This document shows positions 1 through 59,356 of a DNA stretch of 64,000 bases, in pieces. The position numbers and the translations under genes are program-made. The notes below the pieces were generated by a model, which saw only the letters and a program-made list of their open reading frames with translations, was not told where the DNA came from and did no database searches. Position 1 is the first letter of the stretch, and every line of letters begins with the position of its first letter. Source of the stretch: an uncultured Thermoleophilia bacterium (GTDB lineage Bacteria; Actinomycetota; Thermoleophilia; UBA2241); the NCBI GenBank assembly GCA_963702475.1, contig CAVPCT010000001.1, forward strand, positions 96,001 through 160,000, given 5' to 3'.

Positions 1-23
1 CGGATGGCCGGCGCCGCCGCGTT

Positions 24-917
24 CTAATACTGCCGGTCGGCGCGCACCGCGCTCTTGCGCTGCTCCACGATGGTGTGGAGCATCGGCGTGACCACCAGTC
101 GTATGGCCATCTCCATCTTGCCGCCCGGCACCACGATGCAGTTGGGCCGCGACATGAACGAGTCGTGGATCATGGTGAGCAGGTAGGGGAAGTCCACGCC
201 TTTCGGGTCACGGAAGCGGATGATGACGAGCGACTCGTCCAGGGTGGGGATGTCCCTCGCCATGAAGGGGTTGGACGTGTCCACCACCGGCACGCGCTGG
301 AAGTTCACGTGGGTGTAGGCGAACTGCGGCGTGATGTAGTGCACGTAGTCGTGCATGCGCCGCAGGATGGTGTCGGTGACGGCCTCGATGGAGTAGCTGC
401 GGAGGCGCGTGTCGCGGTGGATCTTCTGGATCCACTCGAGGTTGACGATGGGCACGACGCCGATGAGCAGGTCCACCCAGCGCGCCACGTTCACGTCGCC
501 GTGCTGCACGCCGCCGTGCAGGCCCTCATAGAACAGCAGGTCGCTGTCCTCGGGCAGGTCCTCCCACGGCGTGAACGTGCCGCTCTCGTAGCCCAGGGCG
601 GCCGACTCCTCCGTGTTGTGGACGTAGAAGCGGCGCTTGCCCGTCCCCGAGTCGCCGTAGGCCCTGAACAGCTTCTCGAGTTCCTCGAAGAGGTTGCCCT
701 CCGGGCCGAAGTGGCTGGGCGGGCGGTCCCCCCTGGCGTCCGCCTCCTCGATCGCCAGGCGCATGCCCTCGCGGTCGTACCGGTGGAAGCTGTCACCCTC
801 GACCACCACGGGACGGATGCTCTCGCGATGGAAGATGTGCTCGAACGAGCGTTTGACGGTGGTGGTGCCGGCGCCGCTCGATCCGGTGACGGCGATGACG
901 GGGTGTTTGGCGGACAT
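24..917 (-). CDS. cbbP: Phosphoribulokinase (proteobacterial-type PRK/CbbP)
   Basis: N-terminus MSAKHPVIAVTGSSGAGTTT (P-loop); EGDSFH, YEGLHG, NLEWIQKIHRD and NFQRVPVVDTSNPF motifs; RBS GAGAGGAG in the 24-nt gap after cbbM. Confidence 0.95.
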   Translation of the reverse strand: MSAKHPVIAVTGSSGAGTTTVKRSFEHIFHRESIRPVVVEGDSFHRYDREGMRLAIEEADARGDRPPSHFGPEGNLFEELEKLFRAYGDSGTGKRRFYVHNTEESAALGYESGTFTPWEDLPEDSDLLFYEGLHGGVQHGDVNVARWVDLLIGVVPIVNLEWIQKIHRDTRLRSYSIEAVTDTILRRMHDYVHYITPQFAYTHVNFQRVPVVDTSNPFMARDIPTLDESLVIIRFRDPKGVDFPYLLTMIHDSFMSRPNCIVVPGGKMEMAIRLVVTPMLHTIVEQRKSAVRADRQY

Positions 918-941
918 CGTCGTTGTCTCCTCTCGCGCGGC

Positions 942-2318
942 TCAGGCGACGCCGAGGGCCTCGCGCCACCCGGGGTAGAAGGCGTCGGCGTCGGCAGGGA
1001 AGGACTCGAAGGCGCGGGCGAGCTCGCGGTGCGCGCGGGCGGCGGTGACGAGGTCGACCCCGGCCGTCCACGCCTCCACCGACTGCCGCAGGCTGAGGGC
1101 GCCGGCGACCGGGCCGTCGAGGTGCCCGAAGGCGCCGCCTCCGGACGTCTGCACCACGTTGGCGTGACCGAGGTTGTCGAAGAAGCCCGGCAGGCGCAGG
1201 GCGTTCATGCCGCCGGAGATCATCGGCGTCGTGGCCTTCATGCCGTACCACTCCTGGTGGTAGTACGGGCCGTCGGCCGAGTCCTGCTCGATCATGTAGG
1301 CGATGGCCCGGTCGGACTTGTCGCCCTCCATCTTGCCGAAGCCCATGGTGCCGGTGTGGATGCCGGAGGCTCCCTGCAGGCGCGCCATCTTGGAGAGCAC
1401 GAAGGCCGTGTAGCCGCGCTGGGACTGGGGCGACGTGACGGCGCCGTGCCCGGCGCGGTGGTAGTGCAGGAAGGTGTCAGGGAAGCGGCGGCGCGCCGCC
1501 GTGACCGCCGCCGGCCCGCCGACATACCCGTCCACGAGGAACGCGACGTGGTCCTCGAGCCCGGCGAACGCCTCCAGCACGGCCTCGCCGCGCGCCACCA
1601 TCTCCCACGGGTCGTCGGCGGTGATGTTGGCTGAGAAGAGCTTGGCGCCGCCGGTCTCGTTCTGCGCGCGGCGCATGGCGTCGGCCACCAGGCGCATGGT
1701 CTCGGCGTACGGCGCGAACGGCTGGTTGCCCTGGGGCTCGTCGTTCTTGACGAAGTCGCCGCCGAGCCAGAAGTCGTAGCAGGCCTTGGCGAAGAGCTCC
1801 GGCCGGAGGCCCAGCTTGGGCTTGATGATGGTGCCCACGATCATGCCCCCGTCGGCTTCCGGCCGTCCCAGCACGCGCCAGAAGTCGGCGATGTTGCGCC
1901 GCGGGCCGTCGAACATCTCCAGGTACGCGGGCGGCACGTAGAAGTCGTGCATCTTGGCATACTCCACGTCGCCCATGCCCTGGTTGTTGCCGATCGTCAG
2001 CGTGAGGAACGACACGATCATCGCCTTGCCATCGGTGATGTTGCGGTCGAACAGGTCGAGGGGGTACGCGATCTTCATCAGTCCGCCGGCCTCGTCGGCT
2101 TCGTAGACGATGGCATCCACCGAGCGCGTGAAGTCGTCGGTGGTGGAGACCTCCACGTTGGTGCCGGTGGACGACTCGGCGGCGAAGTGCGCGGCCGTGG
2201 CGAGGAAGCCGTTGCCGGCCTTGGGCTTGAACGTGTAGGCGCACAGGACGTGGCGGCCCTGGGCGATGAGGTCGGCCTCGTCGAGGCTCAGGTCGGCGTA
2301 TCTGCTGGACTGGTCCAC
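942..2318 (-). CDS. cbbM: Ribulose-1,5-bisphosphate carboxylase/oxygenase, form II
   Basis: GTG start at 2318 after GGAGGAGG gives (M)DQSSRYADL, the typical form II N-terminus. Active-site motifs [49 protein letters not shown] and GGG are all intact. No small subunit gene adjacent. Confidence 0.95.
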
Positions 2319-2432
2319 GTATCCTCCTCCGCTCGCCGGCGCGGGGGCTCCTCGTCGCCGGCCCGTCGAGTGTGTGCGAGCAAGTGTGCCCATCCGCGCC
2401 TGATTCCGCACGCGTTGACGTCGCCCGCGCCC

Positions 2433-2450
2433 CCTTGACCCTGGTCAAGG
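2433..2450. promoter_or_regulatory. Palindrome CCTTGAC-CCTG-GTCAAGG; FNR/CRP-family-like operator between divergent cbbM and pfpI
   Basis: TTGAC-N4-GTCAA with perfect 7-bp arms, about 115 bp upstream of the cbbM start; resembles the FNR consensus TTGAT-N4-ATCAA. Confidence 0.55.
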
Positions 2451-2673
2451 CGGACGGAGGCGCGCCTCGCCGGGTTGCGGGAGCGCGTGAGGAGCGAGCC
2501 GGCGTAGCCCTCCCCCGGTGTCGACCTCGGGGACTGCCGGTCGTGTCACGCGTCGCACTCCGACCGCGACAGCCGTCAGCCGGCGTGTCTCTGCGCCCGC
2601 CGCACGTTTCCCGATGCCGGGGCCGGGAACGTCCCCCGTGTATGTCCCCGGCACGCAAGGGAGGCTGACGGTC

Positions 2674-3237
2674 ATGACGGATGTGCTCGCAGGGCGCAGG
2701 ATCGCGATCCTCGCCACCGACGGGGTCGAGGAGCTTGAGCTCACGGAGCCCAGGCGCGTGCTTGAGGAGGCCGGTGCCACGGTGGAGCTGCTGGCGCCGA
2801 GGGCCGGCTCGATCCTCGCCATGGACCACCTGGACAAGAGCCGGAGCTACGTGGTGGACCGGCCGGTCGGCGAAGCGGCGCCGGCCGACTACGACGGCCT
2901 GGTGCTGCCGGGCGGCGTCGTGAACGCCGACAAGCTGCGCATCGACGCCGGCGCTGTGACCTTCACGGGCGGCGTGCTGAGCTTCGGTACCCCGGTCGGC
3001 GCGATCTGCCACGGGCTGTGGGTCCTCATCGAGACCGGCATGCTCAAAGGCCGCACCGTGACCTCGTATCCCACGCTGCGCACCGACCTCGAGAACGCCG
3101 GCGCCCGCTGGGTCGACGAGGAGGTCCACAACGACGGCGGCCTGGTGACCAGCAGGCGCGTCGCCGACCTCCCGGCCTTCACCGCGAAGCTCGTGGAGGA
3201 GTTCGCCGAAGGCCTGCACCAGCGGCGTCTGGCCTGA
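2674..3237 (+). CDS. PfpI/DJ-1 family (type 1 glutamine amidotransferase-like) protease/deglycase
   Basis: IAILATDGVEELE, DGLVLPGG, AICHG nucleophile motif, DLENAGARWVDEEV; RBS GGAGG. Confidence 0.9.
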   Translation: MTDVLAGRRIAILATDGVEELELTEPRRVLEEAGATVELLAPRAGSILAMDHLDKSRSYVVDRPVGEAAPADYDGLVLPGGVVNADKLRIDAGAVTFTGGVLSFGTPVGAICHGLWVLIETGMLKGRTVTSYPTLRTDLENAGARWVDEEVHNDGGLVTSRRVADLPAFTAKLVEEFAEGLHQRRLA

Positions 3238-3452
3238 CCGGCCCGGGGCCTGCGGCCGGGCGTGCCCCGTCACTCGGCCGCGACTCTCCGTTTCGTCCCG
3301 GGCCGCACGCAAGACGCTCCTTGCGGGCCCTGACGCAGCTGTTCACAGCGCCACTACCGTCTTGGTAGAGTCGGGCGAAGTCCGACGGCGGTGCGAGTGG
3401 CCCGGTCGCCTGCTCGCCTCAAGGGTGCCGTCGCCACGTGTGGAGGTCGCTC

Positions 3453-42407: not shown

Positions 42408-44207
42408 TCACTCTATCGCACGCCGGCTGGCCCCGGGCAGCCACCAGGCCGGCTCGATCGTGTCGCGCTCAGGCTGCTGGGCGAGGGAGTCGTCCGGCGG
42501 GTCCGTGATCCCCGTCTCGAGCTTGTACGCGCGGATGACGTCATCGGTGTCCCCGAACACGCGCTGGGGACCGATGAGGTCGAGCAGACCGTCCCGCTTG
42601 AGTTCCGCACGCACGGGATCGGCCACGTCGCACAGCACCACGGTGATCCCGCGCGCGTGCAGGTCGCGTACGGTGCGCTCGAGCCAGAGCGTGGCCGTGA
42701 AGTCGACGTCGATCACCGACTCCATGGCCACGCAGAACCAGCGGACGGGGAGCGGCGCGTCGTGCAACAGGCGGTCGACCTCCTCGTGGAAGCGGGATGC
42801 GTTGGCGTAGTAGAGGCTCGCGCCGAAGCGGTAGATGAGGAGGCCCTTGCGCGCCTGCACGCCGCTGTCGAGCGGCAGGTTCTTCCACACCTTGCCTTCG
42901 AAGCGCGCCAGCAGCCGGTCGTAGGGGTGATAGCTGTGCCGCAGGTGGGCGATGATCGACACGGCGATGGCCACGAAGATGCCCTCCTCCACGCCCACCA
43001 GGACCACCGTCGCCGTGGTGAGCACCGCGACCCAGAACTCCACCGGACGCTGCCGCCACACAGTGCGCATGCCGCGCCAGTCGACGAGCTTGACGCCGAT
43101 CAGAAACACGACGGCCGAGAGGACGGCCTCGGGCAGGTACCCCATGGCCCCGGTCGCGAAGAGCAGGACAAGGACGGCGATGGCTGCGGCCGTGAGCTGG
43201 GAGAGCTGGCTGCGGCCGCCGGCCTCGTCGACGATGGCGGTCTTGGTGGGGCTGCCGTTGACGACGTAGGTGCCCGTGAACGCGGCGCCCACGTTGGCCA
43301 GCCCCAGCCCGACCAGGTCCACGTTGTCGTCGAGCCTGTCCTCGTACTTGGAGGCGTAGGCCCGGGACGTGGCCGCGCTCTGCGCGACGATGACGATGAA
43401 GAGCGATGCGGCGGTGCCGGCCAGAGGGATCATGTCGCGGAACGGGACCGCGGGCCAGTCCAGGCCTGGCAGGCCGCGGGGGATCGCGCCGATCGTAAGG
43501 ATGCCGTGGTCGGCGAAGGAAAAAGCGTAGCTCAGGACCATGGTGCCCACCACGGCGATGAGCGCCCAGGGCACGCGCCGCGCCCACCGCTCGCCGAGCA
43601 CGATCACGACGATGACGCTCACGGCGATCAGGACAGCCGCGGGGCTGGTGTGCGTCAGGTCCCTGGCCCAGCTGTACACGTGGGCGGCCGTGGAGCCCCC
43701 CTCCTTGTGGAGGCCGAACATGCCGGCCAGCTGCCCCGCCGCGACGGAGATGCCGACGCCGGTGAGGAAGCCGATGAGCACGGTGCGCGAGAGGAAGTTG
43801 GCGAGGAACCCGAGACGCAGCAGGCGGGCGAGCAGCAGCAGGACGCCGGCGATGAGTGCCAACATGCAGGCCATCCCCACGTACTGCGGCGACCCCGCCA
43901 GGGCGAGCGGCGTGAGGGCGGCGAAGGTGATGGCCGCGGTGGCCGAGTCGGCGCCCACCACGAGGTGGCGCGACGAGCCGAGCAGGGCGAACAGCACGGC
44001 CGGGACGATGAGCGTGTACAGCCCGGTGACGACCGGCATGCCGGCGATGCGCGAATAGCCGAGGACCTCCGGGATGGCGAGTGCGGCAAGCGTGGCGCCG
44101 GCGAGCACGTCGGGCACGGCGCGCTTCTTCCCGATAGGCAGGAGGCCTTCGAACAGCGGGGACGGCAAACGACGGCGCGGCGGCGCGGCCTTCGAGGTCG
44201 CCGCCAT
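42408..44207 (-). CDS. SulP/SLC26 anion transporter with STAS domain
   Basis: DVLAG...P..LGY..IAG.P...GLY, GSSRHL.VG.DS, NGSPTKT, STAS LYYANA...DVD. Confidence 0.9.
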   Translation of the reverse strand: MAATSKAAPPRRRLPSPLFEGLLPIGKKRAVPDVLAGATLAALAIPEVLGYSRIAGMPVVTGLYTLIVPAVLFALLGSSRHLVVGADSATAAITFAALTPLALAGSPQYVGMACMLALIAGVLLLLARLLRLGFLANFLSRTVLIGFLTGVGISVAAGQLAGMFGLHKEGGSTAAHVYSWARDLTHTSPAAVLIAVSVIVVIVLGERWARRVPWALIAVVGTMVLSYAFSFADHGILTIGAIPRGLPGLDWPAVPFRDMIPLAGTAASLFIVIVAQSAATSRAYASKYEDRLDDNVDLVGLGLANVGAAFTGTYVVNGSPTKTAIVDEAGGRSQLSQLTAAAIAVLVLLFATGAMGYLPEAVLSAVVFLIGVKLVDWRGMRTVWRQRPVEFWVAVLTTATVVLVGVEEGIFVAIAVSIIAHLRHSYHPYDRLLARFEGKVWKNLPLDSGVQARKGLLIYRFGASLYYANASRFHEEVDRLLHDAPLPVRWFCVAMESVIDVDFTATLWLERTVRDLHARGITVVLCDVADPVRAELKRDGLLDLIGPQRVFGDTDDVIRAYKLETGITDPPDDSLAQQPERDTIEPAWWLPGASRRAIE

Positions 44208-44327
44208 CAGCGTGCCGGACCTCTCGACAGGGGTTGGGACGGCATGGCGCGGACGTCCGTCATGCACGCAGCGTACCGCGCCAGGCGCCCCGGAGAAAGG
44301 ACGCGCGGACGGAGCAGCGGCCGGCGG

Positions 44328-57291: not shown

Positions 57292-57508
57292 TCGGCCTCC
57301 CTCCGGCGGGGCCCACAAGGGGCGCCCGACGCCAATACTATCGGCAGCTGCCGTTTTGCTCCACAGGCATCGGGTCTTTCGCCACGGCCGCCTGTATGCC
57401 TCCGCTGCGCCCGGACGCGATGGGCCGGGCCGCCGGCGCTCCCCCCGGCGGCCGCGCGCGTGTATCGTTGCGGGACGATGGCCGAGCCCACCTCACCGGA
57501 CTGAACGC

Positions 57509-59356
57509 GTGGCCGTGCGTCCAGGGGGCGTCGAGACGTGGGTGCCCGGGGTCCGCGTGGTGCGCTCCTACAAGCGGCAGTGGTTGCGCGCGGACCTCGT
57601 GGCGGGCATCGTGCTCGCCGCCATCCTCGTCCCGCAGGGGATGGCGTACGCCGAGCTGGCCGGGCTGCCTGCGGTCACCGGCCTGTACACCACCGTCGCC
57701 TGCCTGGTCGCCTACGCCGTCTTCGGCCCCTCGCGCGTGCTCGTGCTCGGGCCGGACTCCTCGGTCTCCCCCCTCATCCTGACGGCCATCGCCCCGTTGG
57801 TTGCCGGCGGCGACCCGGCCACGGCCATCGTGCTGGCCGGGATGATGGCCATCTTCGTCGGCCTCATCGAGGTCGGGCTCGGGCTCGGCAAGCTCGGGTT
57901 CGTCGCCGACCTGCTGTCCAAAGAGGTCCAGGTCGGCTACATGAACGGCCTCGGCATCACCATCATCGTGGGTCAGCTGCCCAAGCTCTTCGGCTTCTCC
58001 ACCGACGCCGACGGCTTCATCCCCGAGGTGCAGGCCTTTGTCGACGGCCTGGACCAGACCAACGCGGCCACCCTGCTCACGGGCCTCGCCTGCCTGGCCG
58101 TGCTCTTCGGCCTTCCACGTCTGACGCGCAAGGTCCCCGCGGTGCTGGTCGCCGTCATCGGCGCCACCGTGGTGTCCGCCGTGCTGGACCTCTCGGCGGG
58201 CTACGCGGTCAAGACCGTCGGCGTCCTCCCGCAGGGGGTACCGGCGCCGAGCTTTCCGTGGACGAGCATCGCCGACGTCGGCCCGCTGCTCATCGCCGCC
58301 GTCGGCATCACGCTCGTCTCGCTCACCGACACCATCGCCAACTCGACGACCTTCGCGGCGCGGCGCGGCGACGAGGTGTACCCGAACCAGGAGATGATCG
58401 GCGTCGGCGTGTCCAACATCGCCGCCGGTTTCTTCCAGGGGTTCGCCGTGTCGACGAGCAGCTCGCGCACGGCGGTCGCGGAGCAGTCGGGCGCCAAGTC
58501 GCAGGTGACCGGCCTCATCGGCGCAGGCATCGTCGCGGCGCTGCTGCTGTTCTTCAACGGGCTGCTTGCGGACCTGCCGCAGGCCACGCTCGCCGCGGTC
58601 GTGATCGTCGCGGCGATCTCCCTGATGGATTGGGGCGTCCTCGTGCGCTACGCGCGCGTGCGCAAGAGCGCCCTGCTGATCGCCCTGGCCGCCACGCTCG
58701 GCGTGGTCCTTTTCGGGGTGTTGTGGGGCATCCTCGTGGCGGTGATCCTCGCCATCTTCGTGTTCTTCAAGCGCAACTGGTGGCCGCACGGCGCCGTTCT
58801 GGGCAAGTCGCAGGACGACCACACCTGGCACAGCGTCGAGGACTTCCCGGAGGCACACGAGGTGCCCGGCATCGTGGTCTTCCGCTGGGAGGCGCCGCTC
58901 TTCTTCGCCAATGCGGGGATGTTCCGCGACCGCGTCCGGGCTCTGGTCAGGGAGCGGCAGCCGTCCTGGGTCGTCCTCCAGTGCGAGGCCGTCACCGACA
59001 TCGACGTGACGGCGGCGGAGATGCTGGAGCAGCTGGACAAGGAGCTGAACCGCCAGGGCGTGCATCTGGCCTTCGCCGAGCTGCGCTCGCGCCTGCAGGA
59101 GCTCGTCCTGCAGTACGGGCTGCTGGAGACGCTGGACCGGGGCCACTTCTACCCCTCCCTCAAGGTCGCCGTACGGGCAGTGAGGGAGATGGGGCGGCTG
59201 CCGGCGGAGGCCGGTGGGGTGGAGAAGGAGGCCGGCCGGGCGGCGGCGCCGGAGGAGGCGCAGGCCGAGGAGGCGCAGGCGAGGGCGTCGGAGCCGGCGA
59301 GGACGGAGAGCCGGGGGCGGGACGACGAGGGGACGACAGGGGGGACGGCCGGCTGA
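57509..59356 (+). CDS. Second SulP/SLC26 anion transporter with STAS domain
   Basis: DLVAG, PQGMAYAELAGLP..GLY, NQEM, SSSRT, STAS PLFFANA, DIDVT; start uncertain. Confidence 0.9.
   Translation: MAVRPGGVETWVPGVRVVRSYKRQWLRADLVAGIVLAAILVPQGMAYAELAGLPAVTGLYTTVACLVAYAVFGPSRVLVLGPDSSVSPLILTAIAPLVAGGDPATAIVLAGMMAIFVGLIEVGLGLGKLGFVADLLSKEVQVGYMNGLGITIIVGQLPKLFGFSTDADGFIPEVQAFVDGLDQTNAATLLTGLACLAVLFGLPRLTRKVPAVLVAVIGATVVSAVLDLSAGYAVKTVGVLPQGVPAPSFPWTSIADVGPLLIAAVGITLVSLTDTIANSTTFAARRGDEVYPNQEMIGVGVSNIAAGFFQGFAVSTSSSRTAVAEQSGAKSQVTGLIGAGIVAALLLFFNGLLADLPQATLAAVVIVAAISLMDWGVLVRYARVRKSALLIALAATLGVVLFGVLWGILVAVILAIFVFFKRNWWPHGAVLGKSQDDHTWHSVEDFPEAHEVPGIVVFRWEAPLFFANAGMFRDRVRALVRERQPSWVVLQCEAVTDIDVTAAEMLEQLDKELNRQGVHLAFAELRSRLQELVLQYGLLETLDRGHFYPSLKVAVRAVREMGRLPAEAGGVEKEAGRAAAPEEAQAEEAQARASEPARTESRGRDDEGTTGGTAG

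What the first reader, a model, noticed from the sequence alone, without database searches (positions are those of the whole stretch)
24..2318. Form II RuBisCO plus PRK mini-operon in an apparently actinobacterial, anaerobe-like genome
Seen in sequence: an intact form II enzyme (all catalytic motifs) directly followed by a proteobacterial-type PRK, both with host-like high GC3. No cbbS, cbbR or cbbQ/O lies upstream; what follows prk is outside the window. Established knowledge: form II with PRK is typical of Proteobacteria in low-O2/high-CO2 niches, whereas autotrophic Actinobacteria usually carry form I (IE/IC). Inference: an old lateral acquisition giving a CBB cycle to a Thermoleophilia-like lineage, used for autotrophy or as an electron sink (NfnAB and glpK lie in the same window).
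Basis: partly seen in the sequence, partly recalled or inferred. Interest (0 to 1): 0.8.

Follow-up and report, generated by a model that had tools for sequence, protein, structure and literature searches.

The report
Borrowed CO2-fixing gene pair in anaerobe
An uncultured sediment actinobacterium carries an intact two-gene CO2-fixing unit (form II RuBisCO plus phosphoribulokinase) taken long ago from proteobacteria, on top of a complete Wood-Ljungdahl CO2-fixing gene cluster, so the enzymes are ordinary but the combination in one anaerobe is unusual.

Summary
Window 942-2318(-) is an intact form II RuBisCO gene (cbbM). Window 24-917(-) is an intact class-I phosphoribulokinase gene (prk), 24 nt downstream. 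The operon ends there: the next gene is convergent.

The host is not a proteobacterium and the contig is not chimeric. Its nearest congener shares the gene pair, one flank and thrC on one contig. Both genes use host-typical codons.

The pair is not peculiar to this genome. Form II occurs in 19 of 54 species genomes of the genus and in one genome of a sister genus. It was found in 0 of 321 genomes of other families of the class and 0 of 400 other genomes of the phylum sampled.

In CbbM and PRK trees the lineage forms one clade nested among proteobacteria. The nearest PRK belongs to a betaproteobacterial cbbR|cbbM-prk-tkt-gap-pgk operon. dN/dS is 0.15-0.24.

I read the pair as an accessory CO2-reducing route; full autotrophy remains a live rival.

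Form II acquired laterally by Actinomycetota is already in print for cultured species. This scan also met form II cassettes in other non-proteobacterial genomes. Verdict: a new member of a known kind.

The parts
942..2318 (-). cbbM, form II RuBisCO, 458 aa, GTG start
   Evidence: NF010002 scores 840.1 bits against a cut-off of 489. Both Pfam domains are present. It aligns end to end with solved form II chains. It sits in the form II tree. dN/dS is 0.15-0.22 against 9 congeners.
24..917 (-). prk, class-I (bacterial) phosphoribulokinase, 297 aa
   Evidence: NF011997 scores 485.1 bits against a cut-off of 362. Pfam PRK scores 226.7 bits. It aligns over residues 1-288 with 1a7j_A. dN/dS is 0.15-0.24.
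918..941 (-). 24-nt spacer between cbbM and prk, holding the prk ribosome-binding site (GAGAGGAG at 927-934)
   Evidence: Sequence read. The same tight cbbM-then-prk order is found in 14 of 14 congener or named Thermoleophilia loci that carry cbbM and in G102.
2319..2390 (-). Leader of cbbM, with the ribosome-binding site GGAGGAGG (2323-2330) and a -35-like CTTGCT (2379-2384). This marks the upstream edge of the part shared with congeners.
   Evidence: Sequence read. In the alignment of 14 upstream regions, similarity starts at an invariant TT.C block and is absent further upstream. The simple sigma-70 scan found no promoter here. A promoter is therefore inferred, not shown.

Best explanation
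What it is (about 0.95): a self-contained module of leader, cbbM and prk. It encodes an active form II RuBisCO and a class-I phosphoribulokinase.

Origin (about 0.8): it was taken once from a proteobacterial cbb operon, of which only the first two genes were kept. The recipient was an ancestor of this Thermoleophilia-labelled family. The module has since been kept under purifying selection in about a third of the species and lost, or never fixed, in the others.

How it works: PRK phosphorylates ribulose-5-phosphate from the host's pentose-phosphate enzymes. RuBisCO then adds CO2 to give two 3-phosphoglycerates. The gene content is shown; the activity is inferred from conserved motifs and selection.

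Role (0.45, inferred): the organism is rich in hydrogenases, carries CODH/ACS and is a facultative anaerobe, so it already has the cheaper Wood-Ljungdahl route. I take the pair to be an accessory route that consumes CO2 and spare reducing power. It would act as a RuBisCO shunt and redox valve while sugars, glycerol or H2/CO are metabolised at low O2 and high CO2. I do not take it to be the basis of obligate autotrophy.
For: Identity: family scores are above the curated cut-offs. Alignments to solved form II RuBisCO and PRK structures run end to end. Both genes have ribosome-binding sites.

Not an artefact:
- All 9 contigs have 69.5-70.9% GC.
- cbbM and prk lie at the 90th and 94th percentile of host codon conformity among 160 ORFs of contig C1.
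- The nearest congener by ThrC, G020 (85%), also has the nearest CbbM (90%) and PRK (88%). It shares the DJ-1 remnant and M28 flank, and has thrC on the same contig.

Origin:
- In the CbbM tree of 89 rows, the 15 lineage rows form one clade (SH-aLRT 99) inside a 48-row clade (99) whose other rows are proteobacterial apart from three Streptomyces sequences.
- In the PRK tree of 63 rows, the lineage clade (99) is sister (99) to a betaproteobacterial MAG. That MAG's locus reads cbbR|cbbM-prk-tkt-gap-pgk.
- In the careful PRK tree of 30 rows, the sister-genus copy G102 branches outside a monophyletic genus clade (98/96 and 98/93).

Selection: dN/dS is 0.15-0.24 in 18 of 18 pairwise comparisons.

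Accessory status: form II is in 19 of 54 genus genomes, and the flanks differ in 4 of 4 other loci annotated.

Host context that favours a sink or shunt:
- A complete cooS-acsB-acsD-acsC-RACo/cooC-acsE cluster.
- CooS over cut-off in 50 of 54 genus genomes and ACS in 41 of 54.
- Cytosolic group-3-like [NiFe] hydrogenases next to HdrA-like and sulfhydrogenase-like subunits, and no other large-subunit locus.
- Six [FeFe]-hydrogenase domain hits.
- No class I, II or V FBPase.
- No cbbR, tkt, gap or fba at the locus.
- NfnAB-like genes, glpK and rubrerythrin in the window.

Precedent: PRK plus RuBisCO alone reduce carbon loss in fermenting yeast and E. coli (passage in PMC7895386).
Against: - Nothing here measures activity or expression.
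- The cycle could still close. Transketolase, GAPDH and ribulose-phosphate epimerase homologues are present. The single PFK has GGDDT and PKTMDND where ATP-PFK chains have GGDGS and PGTIDND. By a rule I recall rather than tested, this marks a reversible PPi-PFK that can stand in for FBPase/SBPase.
- Heme-copper and bd oxidases are present. A micro-oxic autotrophic mode, used when the O2-sensitive CODH/ACS is off, is therefore plausible.
- High codon conformity and strong purifying selection would also fit a major assimilatory role.
- The presence of cbbM is unrelated to the presence of ACS (14 of 19 against 27 of 35 genomes). This favours neither role.
- ThrC and CbbM identities to G000 do not correlate across 17 congeners (rho 0.09). 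Vertical descent within the genus is therefore shown only for the G000/G020 pair.
Confidence: 0.45

Rival explanations
1. Facultative Calvin-cycle autotrophy or mixotrophy. The two imported genes plus housekeeping transketolase, epimerase, GAPDH, PGK, an aldolase and a reversible PPi-PFK close a full cycle. It would be driven by H2 or CO, and used mainly under micro-oxic conditions in which CODH/ACS is inactivated.
For: - tkt, gap and rpe homologues are present.
- The PFK carries PPi-type signature residues (the rule is recalled).
- Anaerobic CODH and NAD(P)-type hydrogenases are present.
- COX1 and cytochrome bd are present.
- Selection is strong and codon use is well adapted.
- Two SulP transporters lie in the window and one lies next to cbbM in a congener.
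Against: - No respiratory group-1 uptake hydrogenase was found, and no form I aerobic CoxL reached its cut-off.
- The only aldolase hit is a divergent class II-like protein, at 85 bits and below the NCBIfam cut-offs.
- No class I, II or V FBPase was found.
- There is no cbbR or second cbb gene set at the locus.
- A cheaper CO2-fixing route is already encoded.
- Only 19 of 54 species keep the pair.
Confidence: 0.35
2. Pentose or nucleotide salvage. RuBisCO disposes of ribulose-1,5-bisphosphate made from nucleosides, as in the archaeal and CPR AMP pathway, with little link to redox or autotrophy.
For: RuBisCO in non-autotrophs is known to serve a nucleoside pathway (passages cited in PMC9326234 and PMC6146748).
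Against: That pathway uses form III or II/III enzymes without PRK. Here the enzyme is a canonical form II, fused in an operon with PRK in 14 of 14 lineage loci. I did not search for AMP phosphorylase or ribose-1,5-bisphosphate isomerase.
Confidence: 0.05
3. Artefact or relic: a mis-binned or chimeric proteobacterial fragment, or a decaying pair of genes that no longer functions.
For: The genome is a MAG-grade assembly with 6.49% estimated contamination. The CbbM and PRK closest outside the lineage are proteobacterial.
Against: - The genes lie 96 kb inside a 264-kb contig of host GC.
- Codon use is host-like.
- The flank and thrC synteny with G020 are shared.
- 18 other genomes of the genus hold the pair.
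- Reading frames and motifs are intact.
- dN/dS is far below 1.
Confidence: 0.03

Closest known systems
Proteobacterial cbb operons that begin cbbM-prk (locus L041 of 'Betaproteobacteria bacterium CG2_30_68_42'; also Magnetospirillum molischianum L078 and Rhodospirillaceae LM-1 L025)
   Same: Same gene order, with prk directly after cbbM. The L041 PRK is the nearest outside relative (72.6% identity, sister with support 99). Its CbbM is 77.7% identical and lies in the same 48-row clade.
   Different: L041 has a divergent LysR (cbbR-like) gene and continues with tkt, gap and pgk. The window has none of these. Its neighbours are DJ-1/PfpI and a PASTA protein.
Form II RuBisCO of Rhodospirillum rubrum / Rhodopseudomonas palustris (PDB 9rub, 5hqm, 4lf1) and PRK of Rhodobacter sphaeroides (PDB 1a7j)
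   Same: Full-length alignment, E about 1e-243 for RuBisCO and 1.6e-116 for PRK. The stretches [52 protein letters not shown] and GGGAFGH are kept in RuBisCO. GSSGAGT.TVK and NLEWIQKIHRD are kept in PRK. The roles of these residues are recalled, not tested.
   Different: About 76-80% (CbbM) and 58% (PRK) identity to Rhodobacter and Rhodopseudomonas sequences. The host is a non-phototrophic, actinobacterial-labelled anaerobe.
Form II RuBisCO in other Actinomycetota: three cultured species reported in a survey of a culture collection (PMC12999727), and Streptomyces mesophilus / Streptomyces sp. NRRL B-3428 (L072, L090, L087)
   Same: A proteobacterial-type enzyme in Actinomycetota. The paper also reads it as horizontal transfer from Pseudomonadota (passages read).
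   Different: The Streptomyces sequences form a separate clade (support 100) elsewhere in the tree, so they are an independent import. They have no PRK within 6 kb. The paper does not mention Thermoleophilia (0 occurrences). None of those reports concerns a host that carries CODH/ACS.
Engineered PRK+RuBisCO shunt in fermenting yeast and E. coli
   Same: Only these two genes are added to a heterotroph's pentose-phosphate and glycolytic enzymes (passage in PMC7895386; abstract of PMC7734965 in the listing).
   Different: That system is man-made and measured. Here the same minimal gene set is natural and its role is inferred.

Membership tests
Form II RuBisCO (CbbM) | Scores above the curated cut-off of the form II equivalog model and below those of the form I/III/IV models | tested here: met
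   NF010002 scores 840.1 against 489. NF003252 scores 263 against 438, TIGR03326 scores 244 against 497, and the RLP models score 101 bits or less.
Form II RuBisCO (CbbM) | N-terminal and TIM-barrel catalytic domains with the active-site motifs intact (carbamylated Lys in GGDF.KNDE, KPKLG, HRAGHG, GFGKMEG, GGGAFGH) | tested here: met
   Both Pfam domains are full length. All the listed stretches are conserved in the alignment with 5hqm_A. Which residue does what is recalled.
Form II RuBisCO (CbbM) | Branches inside the form II clade | tested here: met
   In the 89-row tree the lineage clade nests among alpha-, beta- and gammaproteobacterial CbbM sequences.
Form II RuBisCO (CbbM) | No small subunit | tested here: met
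   No cbbS-like gene flanks it. Only one RuBisCO large-chain homologue is in the genome. The small-subunit family itself was not searched genome-wide.
Form II RuBisCO (CbbM) | Carboxylase activity with low CO2/O2 specificity | not testable with these tools
   Needs the expressed enzyme.
Class-I bacterial phosphoribulokinase (PRK15453 type) | Above the equivalog cut-off; full-length match to the solved R. sphaeroides enzyme, including the P-loop | tested here: met
   NF011997 scores 485.1 against 362. Residues 1-288 align with 1a7j_A, and GSSGAGTTTVK is kept.
Complete Calvin-Benson-Bassham cycle | RuBisCO, PRK, transketolase, ribulose-phosphate epimerase and GAPDH present | tested here: met
   tblastn with Rhodobacter capsulatus cbb genes gives tkt 49%, gap 54% and rpe 49% identity.
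Complete Calvin-Benson-Bassham cycle | FBP/SBP phosphatase | tested here: not met
   PF00316, PF03320 and PF01950 gave no match in a genome that is 93.8% complete. Classes III and IV were not searched. A PPi-PFK substitute is possible but rests on a recalled rule.
Complete Calvin-Benson-Bassham cycle | FBP/SBP aldolase | tested here: inconclusive
   There is one class II-family hit of 85 bits, below all NCBIfam cut-offs. Class I aldolases were not searched.
Proteobacterial cbb regulon | Divergent cbbR and further cbb genes in the operon; CbbQ/O activase | tested here: not met
   None lies at the locus. CbbQ_C was found in 0 of 54 genus genomes, but that search had no positive control.

The most novel reading that the evidence does not exclude
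A lineage of anaerobic Thermoleophilia-labelled actinobacteria runs two CO2-fixing systems in one cell. The O2-sensitive Wood-Ljungdahl pathway would work under strict anoxia. An imported minimal Calvin module (form II RuBisCO plus PRK, closed by a reversible PPi-PFK) would take over, or act as a redox valve, when traces of O2 or excess reductant appear. That would make this a natural two-pathway autotroph or mixotroph in a phylum known for aerobic form IE chemosynthesis.
Probability: 0.25. Interest if true: 0.65.

Novelty: new member of a known kind. Interest (0 to 1): 0.4.

Why it matters
If the pair is active, part of an abundant sediment, wastewater and soil lineage of uncultured actinobacteria can reduce CO2 by the Calvin reaction under low oxygen. 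That would add to dark carbon fixation budgets.

It would also give a natural counterpart to the engineered 'PRK + RuBisCO only' shunt used to improve fermentations. Cells that hold both CODH/ACS and RuBisCO/PRK offer a test bed for how two CO2-fixing routes are partitioned.

As it stands, this is a gene-content finding built from canonical enzymes. The genes are already deposited and machine-annotated in public MAGs (names).

Tried and rejected
- **Expression.** I laid contigs of one metatranscriptome (X20) and one run guessed to be RNA (X16) on window 1-3300. Pieces at least 95% alike cover parts of prk and cbbM. In X20 there is next to no cover beyond 2200. Contigs cannot show transcription, DNA may be present in such libraries, and the pieces may come from relatives. 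I draw no conclusion on expression, and none from the uncovered part.
- **Habitat.** Two DNA runs were laid: a sediment metagenome (30 of 30 bins covered) and a wastewater metagenome (28 of 30 bins, including a 694-nt piece without differences). The best holder may be the source sample.
- **Regulatory RNA in the leader.** Rfam at E up to 1 gave only a chance viral match, on L004, below its gathering score. RNAalifold on 11 leaders gave 5 pairs and no compensatory change.
- **Operator site.** The palindrome CCTTGACCAGGGTCAAGG (window 2433-2450) is in G000 only, 1 of 16 upstream regions.
- **Promoter and terminator scan.** It found nothing at the operon.
- **CbbQ activase.** Found in 0 of 54 genomes, but the control rang nowhere, so this is uninformative.
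- **Association tests.** cbbM is not associated with ACS. ThrC and CbbM identities do not correlate (rho 0.09, n=17).
- **G102 cbbM.** The apparent split lies exactly at two N bases, so it is not evidence of a broken gene.
- **Literature.** These nine term sets found no paper describing form II RuBisCO in Thermoleophilia:
  - Thermoleophilia / form II / RuBisCO
  - form II RuBisCO / Actinobacteria
  - form II / cbbM / Actinomycetota
  - Actinobacteriota / form II / RuBisCO
  - Thermoleophilia / cbbM
  - Actinomycetota / RuBisCO / form II / phosphoribulokinase
  - Actinobacteria / form II / RubisCO / form IE / horizontal
  - Thermoleophilia / Wood-Ljungdahl
  - Wood-Ljungdahl / phosphoribulokinase / form II / acetyl-CoA synthase

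  Supplementary tables of PMC7901476 and PMC12999727 were not opened and may list such MAGs or strains.
- **Class name.** I suspected from the genome sizes of 'same class' relatives that the class might be Coriobacteriia. The named EF-Tu and PRK hits say Thermoleophilia. No marker-gene phylogeny was built.
Full report
**Observation**

The region holds two genes on the minus strand.

cbbM runs from the GTG at window 2318 to the TGA at 942-944. The longest ORF reaches 2411, but homology begins at its residue 33, and a GGAGGAGG box lies four bases before the GTG. The 458-aa product scores 840 bits on NCBI's form II equivalog model, against a cut-off of 489, and far less on the form I, III and IV models. 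It has both Pfam RuBisCO domains. It aligns end to end with solved form II enzymes at E about 1e-243, and the known active-site stretches are intact. The roles of the individual residues are recalled, not tested.

prk follows 24 nt later, behind GAGAGGAG. It spans window 917-24 and encodes 297 aa. It scores 485 bits on NF011997, against a cut-off of 362. It aligns over 288 residues with the Rhodobacter sphaeroides PRK structure 1a7j.

The upstream neighbours are a divergent DJ-1/PfpI gene and an M28 peptidase.

**Beyond the window**

The window is G000:C1:96001-160000 in a 4.31-Mb assembly of 9 contigs. Directly beyond prk lies a convergent gene for a protein with five PASTA domains. In the 20 kb further left I annotated a TMEM175-like channel, DUF1269, a VTT-domain protein, cardiolipin-synthase-like PLD, an acyl-CoA-synthetase-like gene, Ku, LigD, an aldehyde dehydrogenase and an EamA transporter. 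None is a Calvin-cycle gene. The operon is therefore exactly cbbM-prk. The genome holds only one RuBisCO large-chain homologue.

**Host and integrity**

- All nine contigs have 69.5-70.9% GC.
- Against the synonymous codon usage of 160 high-GC3 ORFs of contig C1, cbbM and prk lie at the 90th and 94th percentile.
- The five closest named records in a scan of species-representative genomes are titled 'Thermoleophilia bacterium'. They are 86-90% identical in CbbM and carry prk directly after cbbM. One of them has CbbM and PRK rows identical to those of an unnamed congener.
- Among the 120 listed PRK hits, the four whose source names an organism all say Thermoleophilia.
- In the EF-Tu listing, the named hits at 80-82% identity are almost all Thermoleophilia, with one Gaiellales at 80%. 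One hit at 80% is named only 'bacterium BMS3Abin01'. Firmicutes names begin at 79-80%.
- I built no marker phylogeny, so the class name rests on these labels.
- The nearest congener by ThrC, G020 (85%), also has the nearest CbbM (90%) and PRK (88%). It shares the DJ-1 remnant and M28 flank, and has cbbM and thrC about 77 kb apart on one contig, compared with about 60 kb in G000.

A chimeric join at about 2.4 kb is thus excluded for practical purposes.

**Distribution**

Form II scores above cut-off in 19 of 54 species genomes of the genus, G000 included. Among genomes at least 90% complete and at most 5% contaminated the count is 9 of 21.

The order is a single family of 89 genomes in 11 genera. 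Outside the genus there is one further match, G102 in a genus of three. Its gene looks split only at two N bases, and an intact prk follows it.

In a class sample of 401 genomes, the 321 genomes from the 11 other families gave no match. In a phylum sample, 0 of 400 other genomes from 248 genera matched. The class-I PRK was found in 3 of 400.

The trait is therefore common in this genus and rare in the rest of the phylum as sampled. The 120 best PRK clusters at 90% identity are all at least 74% identical to the window's PRK, so the clade is widespread in metagenomes.

**Origin**

- In a CbbM tree of 89 rows (quick IQ-TREE), the 15 lineage rows form one clade with SH-aLRT 99. It sits inside a 48-row clade (99) that also holds Azospirillum, Pararhodospirillum, Magnetospirillum, Rhodobacter, some beta- and gammaproteobacteria, and three Streptomyces sequences. 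The Streptomyces sequences form their own clade (100) elsewhere in it, so they are a separate import.
- In a PRK tree of 63 rows, the lineage clade (99) is sister (99) to the PRK of a betaproteobacterial MAG, L041 (72.6% identity). That locus reads LysR-type regulator | cbbM-prk-tkt-gap-pgk.
- In a careful PRK tree of 30 rows, G102 branches outside a monophyletic genus clade (98/96 and 98/93). The CbbM tree agrees more weakly (92 and 94).

This pattern fits one import of the head of a proteobacterial cbb operon before the two genera split, followed by descent and many losses. Transfer between the genera is not excluded.

Within the genus, the flanks differ in the four other loci I annotated. 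In an alignment of 14 upstream regions, similarity starts at a -35-like TT.C block about 100 nt before the start codon and is absent further upstream. The unit has therefore moved or been rearranged as a module of about 2.4 kb with its own leader.

dN/dS against nine congeners is 0.15-0.22 for cbbM and 0.15-0.24 for prk.

**Host metabolism**

- There is an anaerobic Ni-CODH gene (TIGR01702, 591 bits against a cut-off of 478). It is followed by acsB (three ACS domains), two CdhD-family corrinoid-protein genes, a long ORF with RACo and CooC-like (CbiA) domains that overlaps the preceding gene and may be two genes, and a pterin-binding methyltransferase. This is the carbonyl branch of the Wood-Ljungdahl pathway.
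- CooS is over cut-off in 50 of 54 genus genomes and ACS is present in 41 of 54.
- cbbM and ACS co-occur in 14 genomes and show no association (14 of 19 against 27 of 35).
- There are two [NiFe] hydrogenase loci. One is VhuA-like, next to HdrA-like and QmoC-like genes. The other is sulfhydrogenase-like, with its beta and gamma subunits. There is no other large-subunit locus.
- There are six [FeFe]-hydrogenase domain hits.
- A heme-copper oxidase and a cytochrome bd oxidase are present.
- No aerobic form I CoxL reaches its cut-off.
- The window itself holds an NfnAB-like pair, GlpK, rubrerythrin and NifS/NifU.
I did not recheck it.

**Calvin-cycle enzymes**

tblastn with the Rhodobacter capsulatus cbb genes finds transketolase, GAPDH, ribulose-phosphate epimerase and a HAD phosphatase. 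It finds no class I FBPase and no class II aldolase. Family searches find no class I, II or V FBPase and one divergent class II-type aldolase at 85 bits.

The only PFK shows GGDDT and PKTMDND where ATP-dependent chains show GGDGS and PGTIDND. From memory, Asp and Lys at these two positions mark PPi-dependent, reversible PFKs, which replace FBPase/SBPase in some Calvin-cycle variants. This inference is untested.

**Reading**

The shown facts are an intact, selected, laterally acquired RuBisCO-PRK module in an anaerobe that already encodes CODH/ACS. The role is inferred.

I favour (0.45) an accessory route that turns pentose phosphates plus CO2 into 3-phosphoglycerate and absorbs surplus reductant. 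My reasons are:
- only the two committed genes were kept;
- no regulator or second set of cycle genes came with them;
- no canonical FBPase was found;
- two thirds of the species do without the pair;
- a cheaper autotrophic route is already present;
- the same minimal pair improves fermentations when engineered (passage in PMC7895386).

Full facultative autotrophy (0.35) remains open, because the cycle may close through a PPi-PFK and because the oxidases suggest micro-oxic phases in which CODH/ACS cannot work.

**Comparison with what is known**

Reviews list form II for Proteobacteria, Archaea and dinoflagellates (passage in PMC7895386).

A 2026 survey of a culture collection reports three Actinomycetota species with form II and reads them as transfers from Pseudomonadota. 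The genera it lists as carrying form IA or II are Flaviflexus, Amorphoplanes, Propionicicella and Propionicimonas. Thermoleophilia is not mentioned (PMC12999727, passages read).

CODH/ACS in Actinobacteria was reported as surprising for OPB41/Coriobacteriia MAGs (PMC6146748, passages). Anaerobic Thermoleophilia MAGs of a GTDB order named UBA2241 have been described without mention of RuBisCO (PMC7438021, passages). I do not know whether that order is this one.

Nine literature searches found no description of form II in Thermoleophilia. Supplementary tables were not read.

This scan has earlier noted form II cassettes in another actinobacterium and in Calditrichota.

**Verdict**

A real and well-preserved feature made of canonical enzymes, and a new lineage for a kind of transfer that is already known. 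The interesting remainder is its coexistence with the Wood-Ljungdahl pathway, which needs physiology to interpret.

Noticed in passing
G000:C5:442764-453171 (loci L113, L116): A complete CODH/ACS gene cluster: cooS, a small ORF, acsB, two CdhD-family corrinoid-protein genes, a RACo plus CooC-like ORF and a pterin-binding methyltransferase. CooS is over cut-off in 50 of 54 genus genomes and ACS is present in 41 of 54.
   Followed up: partly
G000:C6:203538-205392 (locus L114): A second CooS-like gene whose two halves match in different reading frames. It may be a frameshift or an assembly error.
   Followed up: no
G000:C6:156670-169785 (locus L108): Two HdrA-like genes, a QmoC-like gene, a VhuA-like [NiFe] hydrogenase large subunit, its maturation protease and hypF/D/E in one cluster. 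This looks like a heterodisulfide-reductase-linked hydrogenase in an actinobacterium.
   Followed up: partly
window 42408-44267(-) and 57356-59356(+); L029:3683-5461(-): Two SulP-family transporters in the window score far below cut-off on the BicA bicarbonate-transporter model. A SulP/STAS gene lies divergently next to cbbM in one named congener locus. A possible link to inorganic carbon supply was not tested.
   Followed up: no
L072, L087, L090 (Streptomyces mesophilus, Streptomyces sp. NRRL B-3428): Form II RuBisCO genes in Streptomyces, 76-77% identical to the window's. They form their own clade and have no PRK within 6 kb, so they are a separate import into Actinomycetota.
   Followed up: partly
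window 2433-2450: A perfect palindrome, CCTTGACCAGGGTCAAGG, between cbbM and the divergent DJ-1/PfpI gene. It is present in G000 only, 1 of 16 upstream regions compared.
   Followed up: yes
These fit an anaerobic, redox-flexible host.
   Followed up: partly
G000:C3:688474-689736 (locus L110): The genome's only PFK has a glycine- and glutamate-rich low-complexity insert (residues about 57-79) and PPi-type signature residues.
   Followed up: partly
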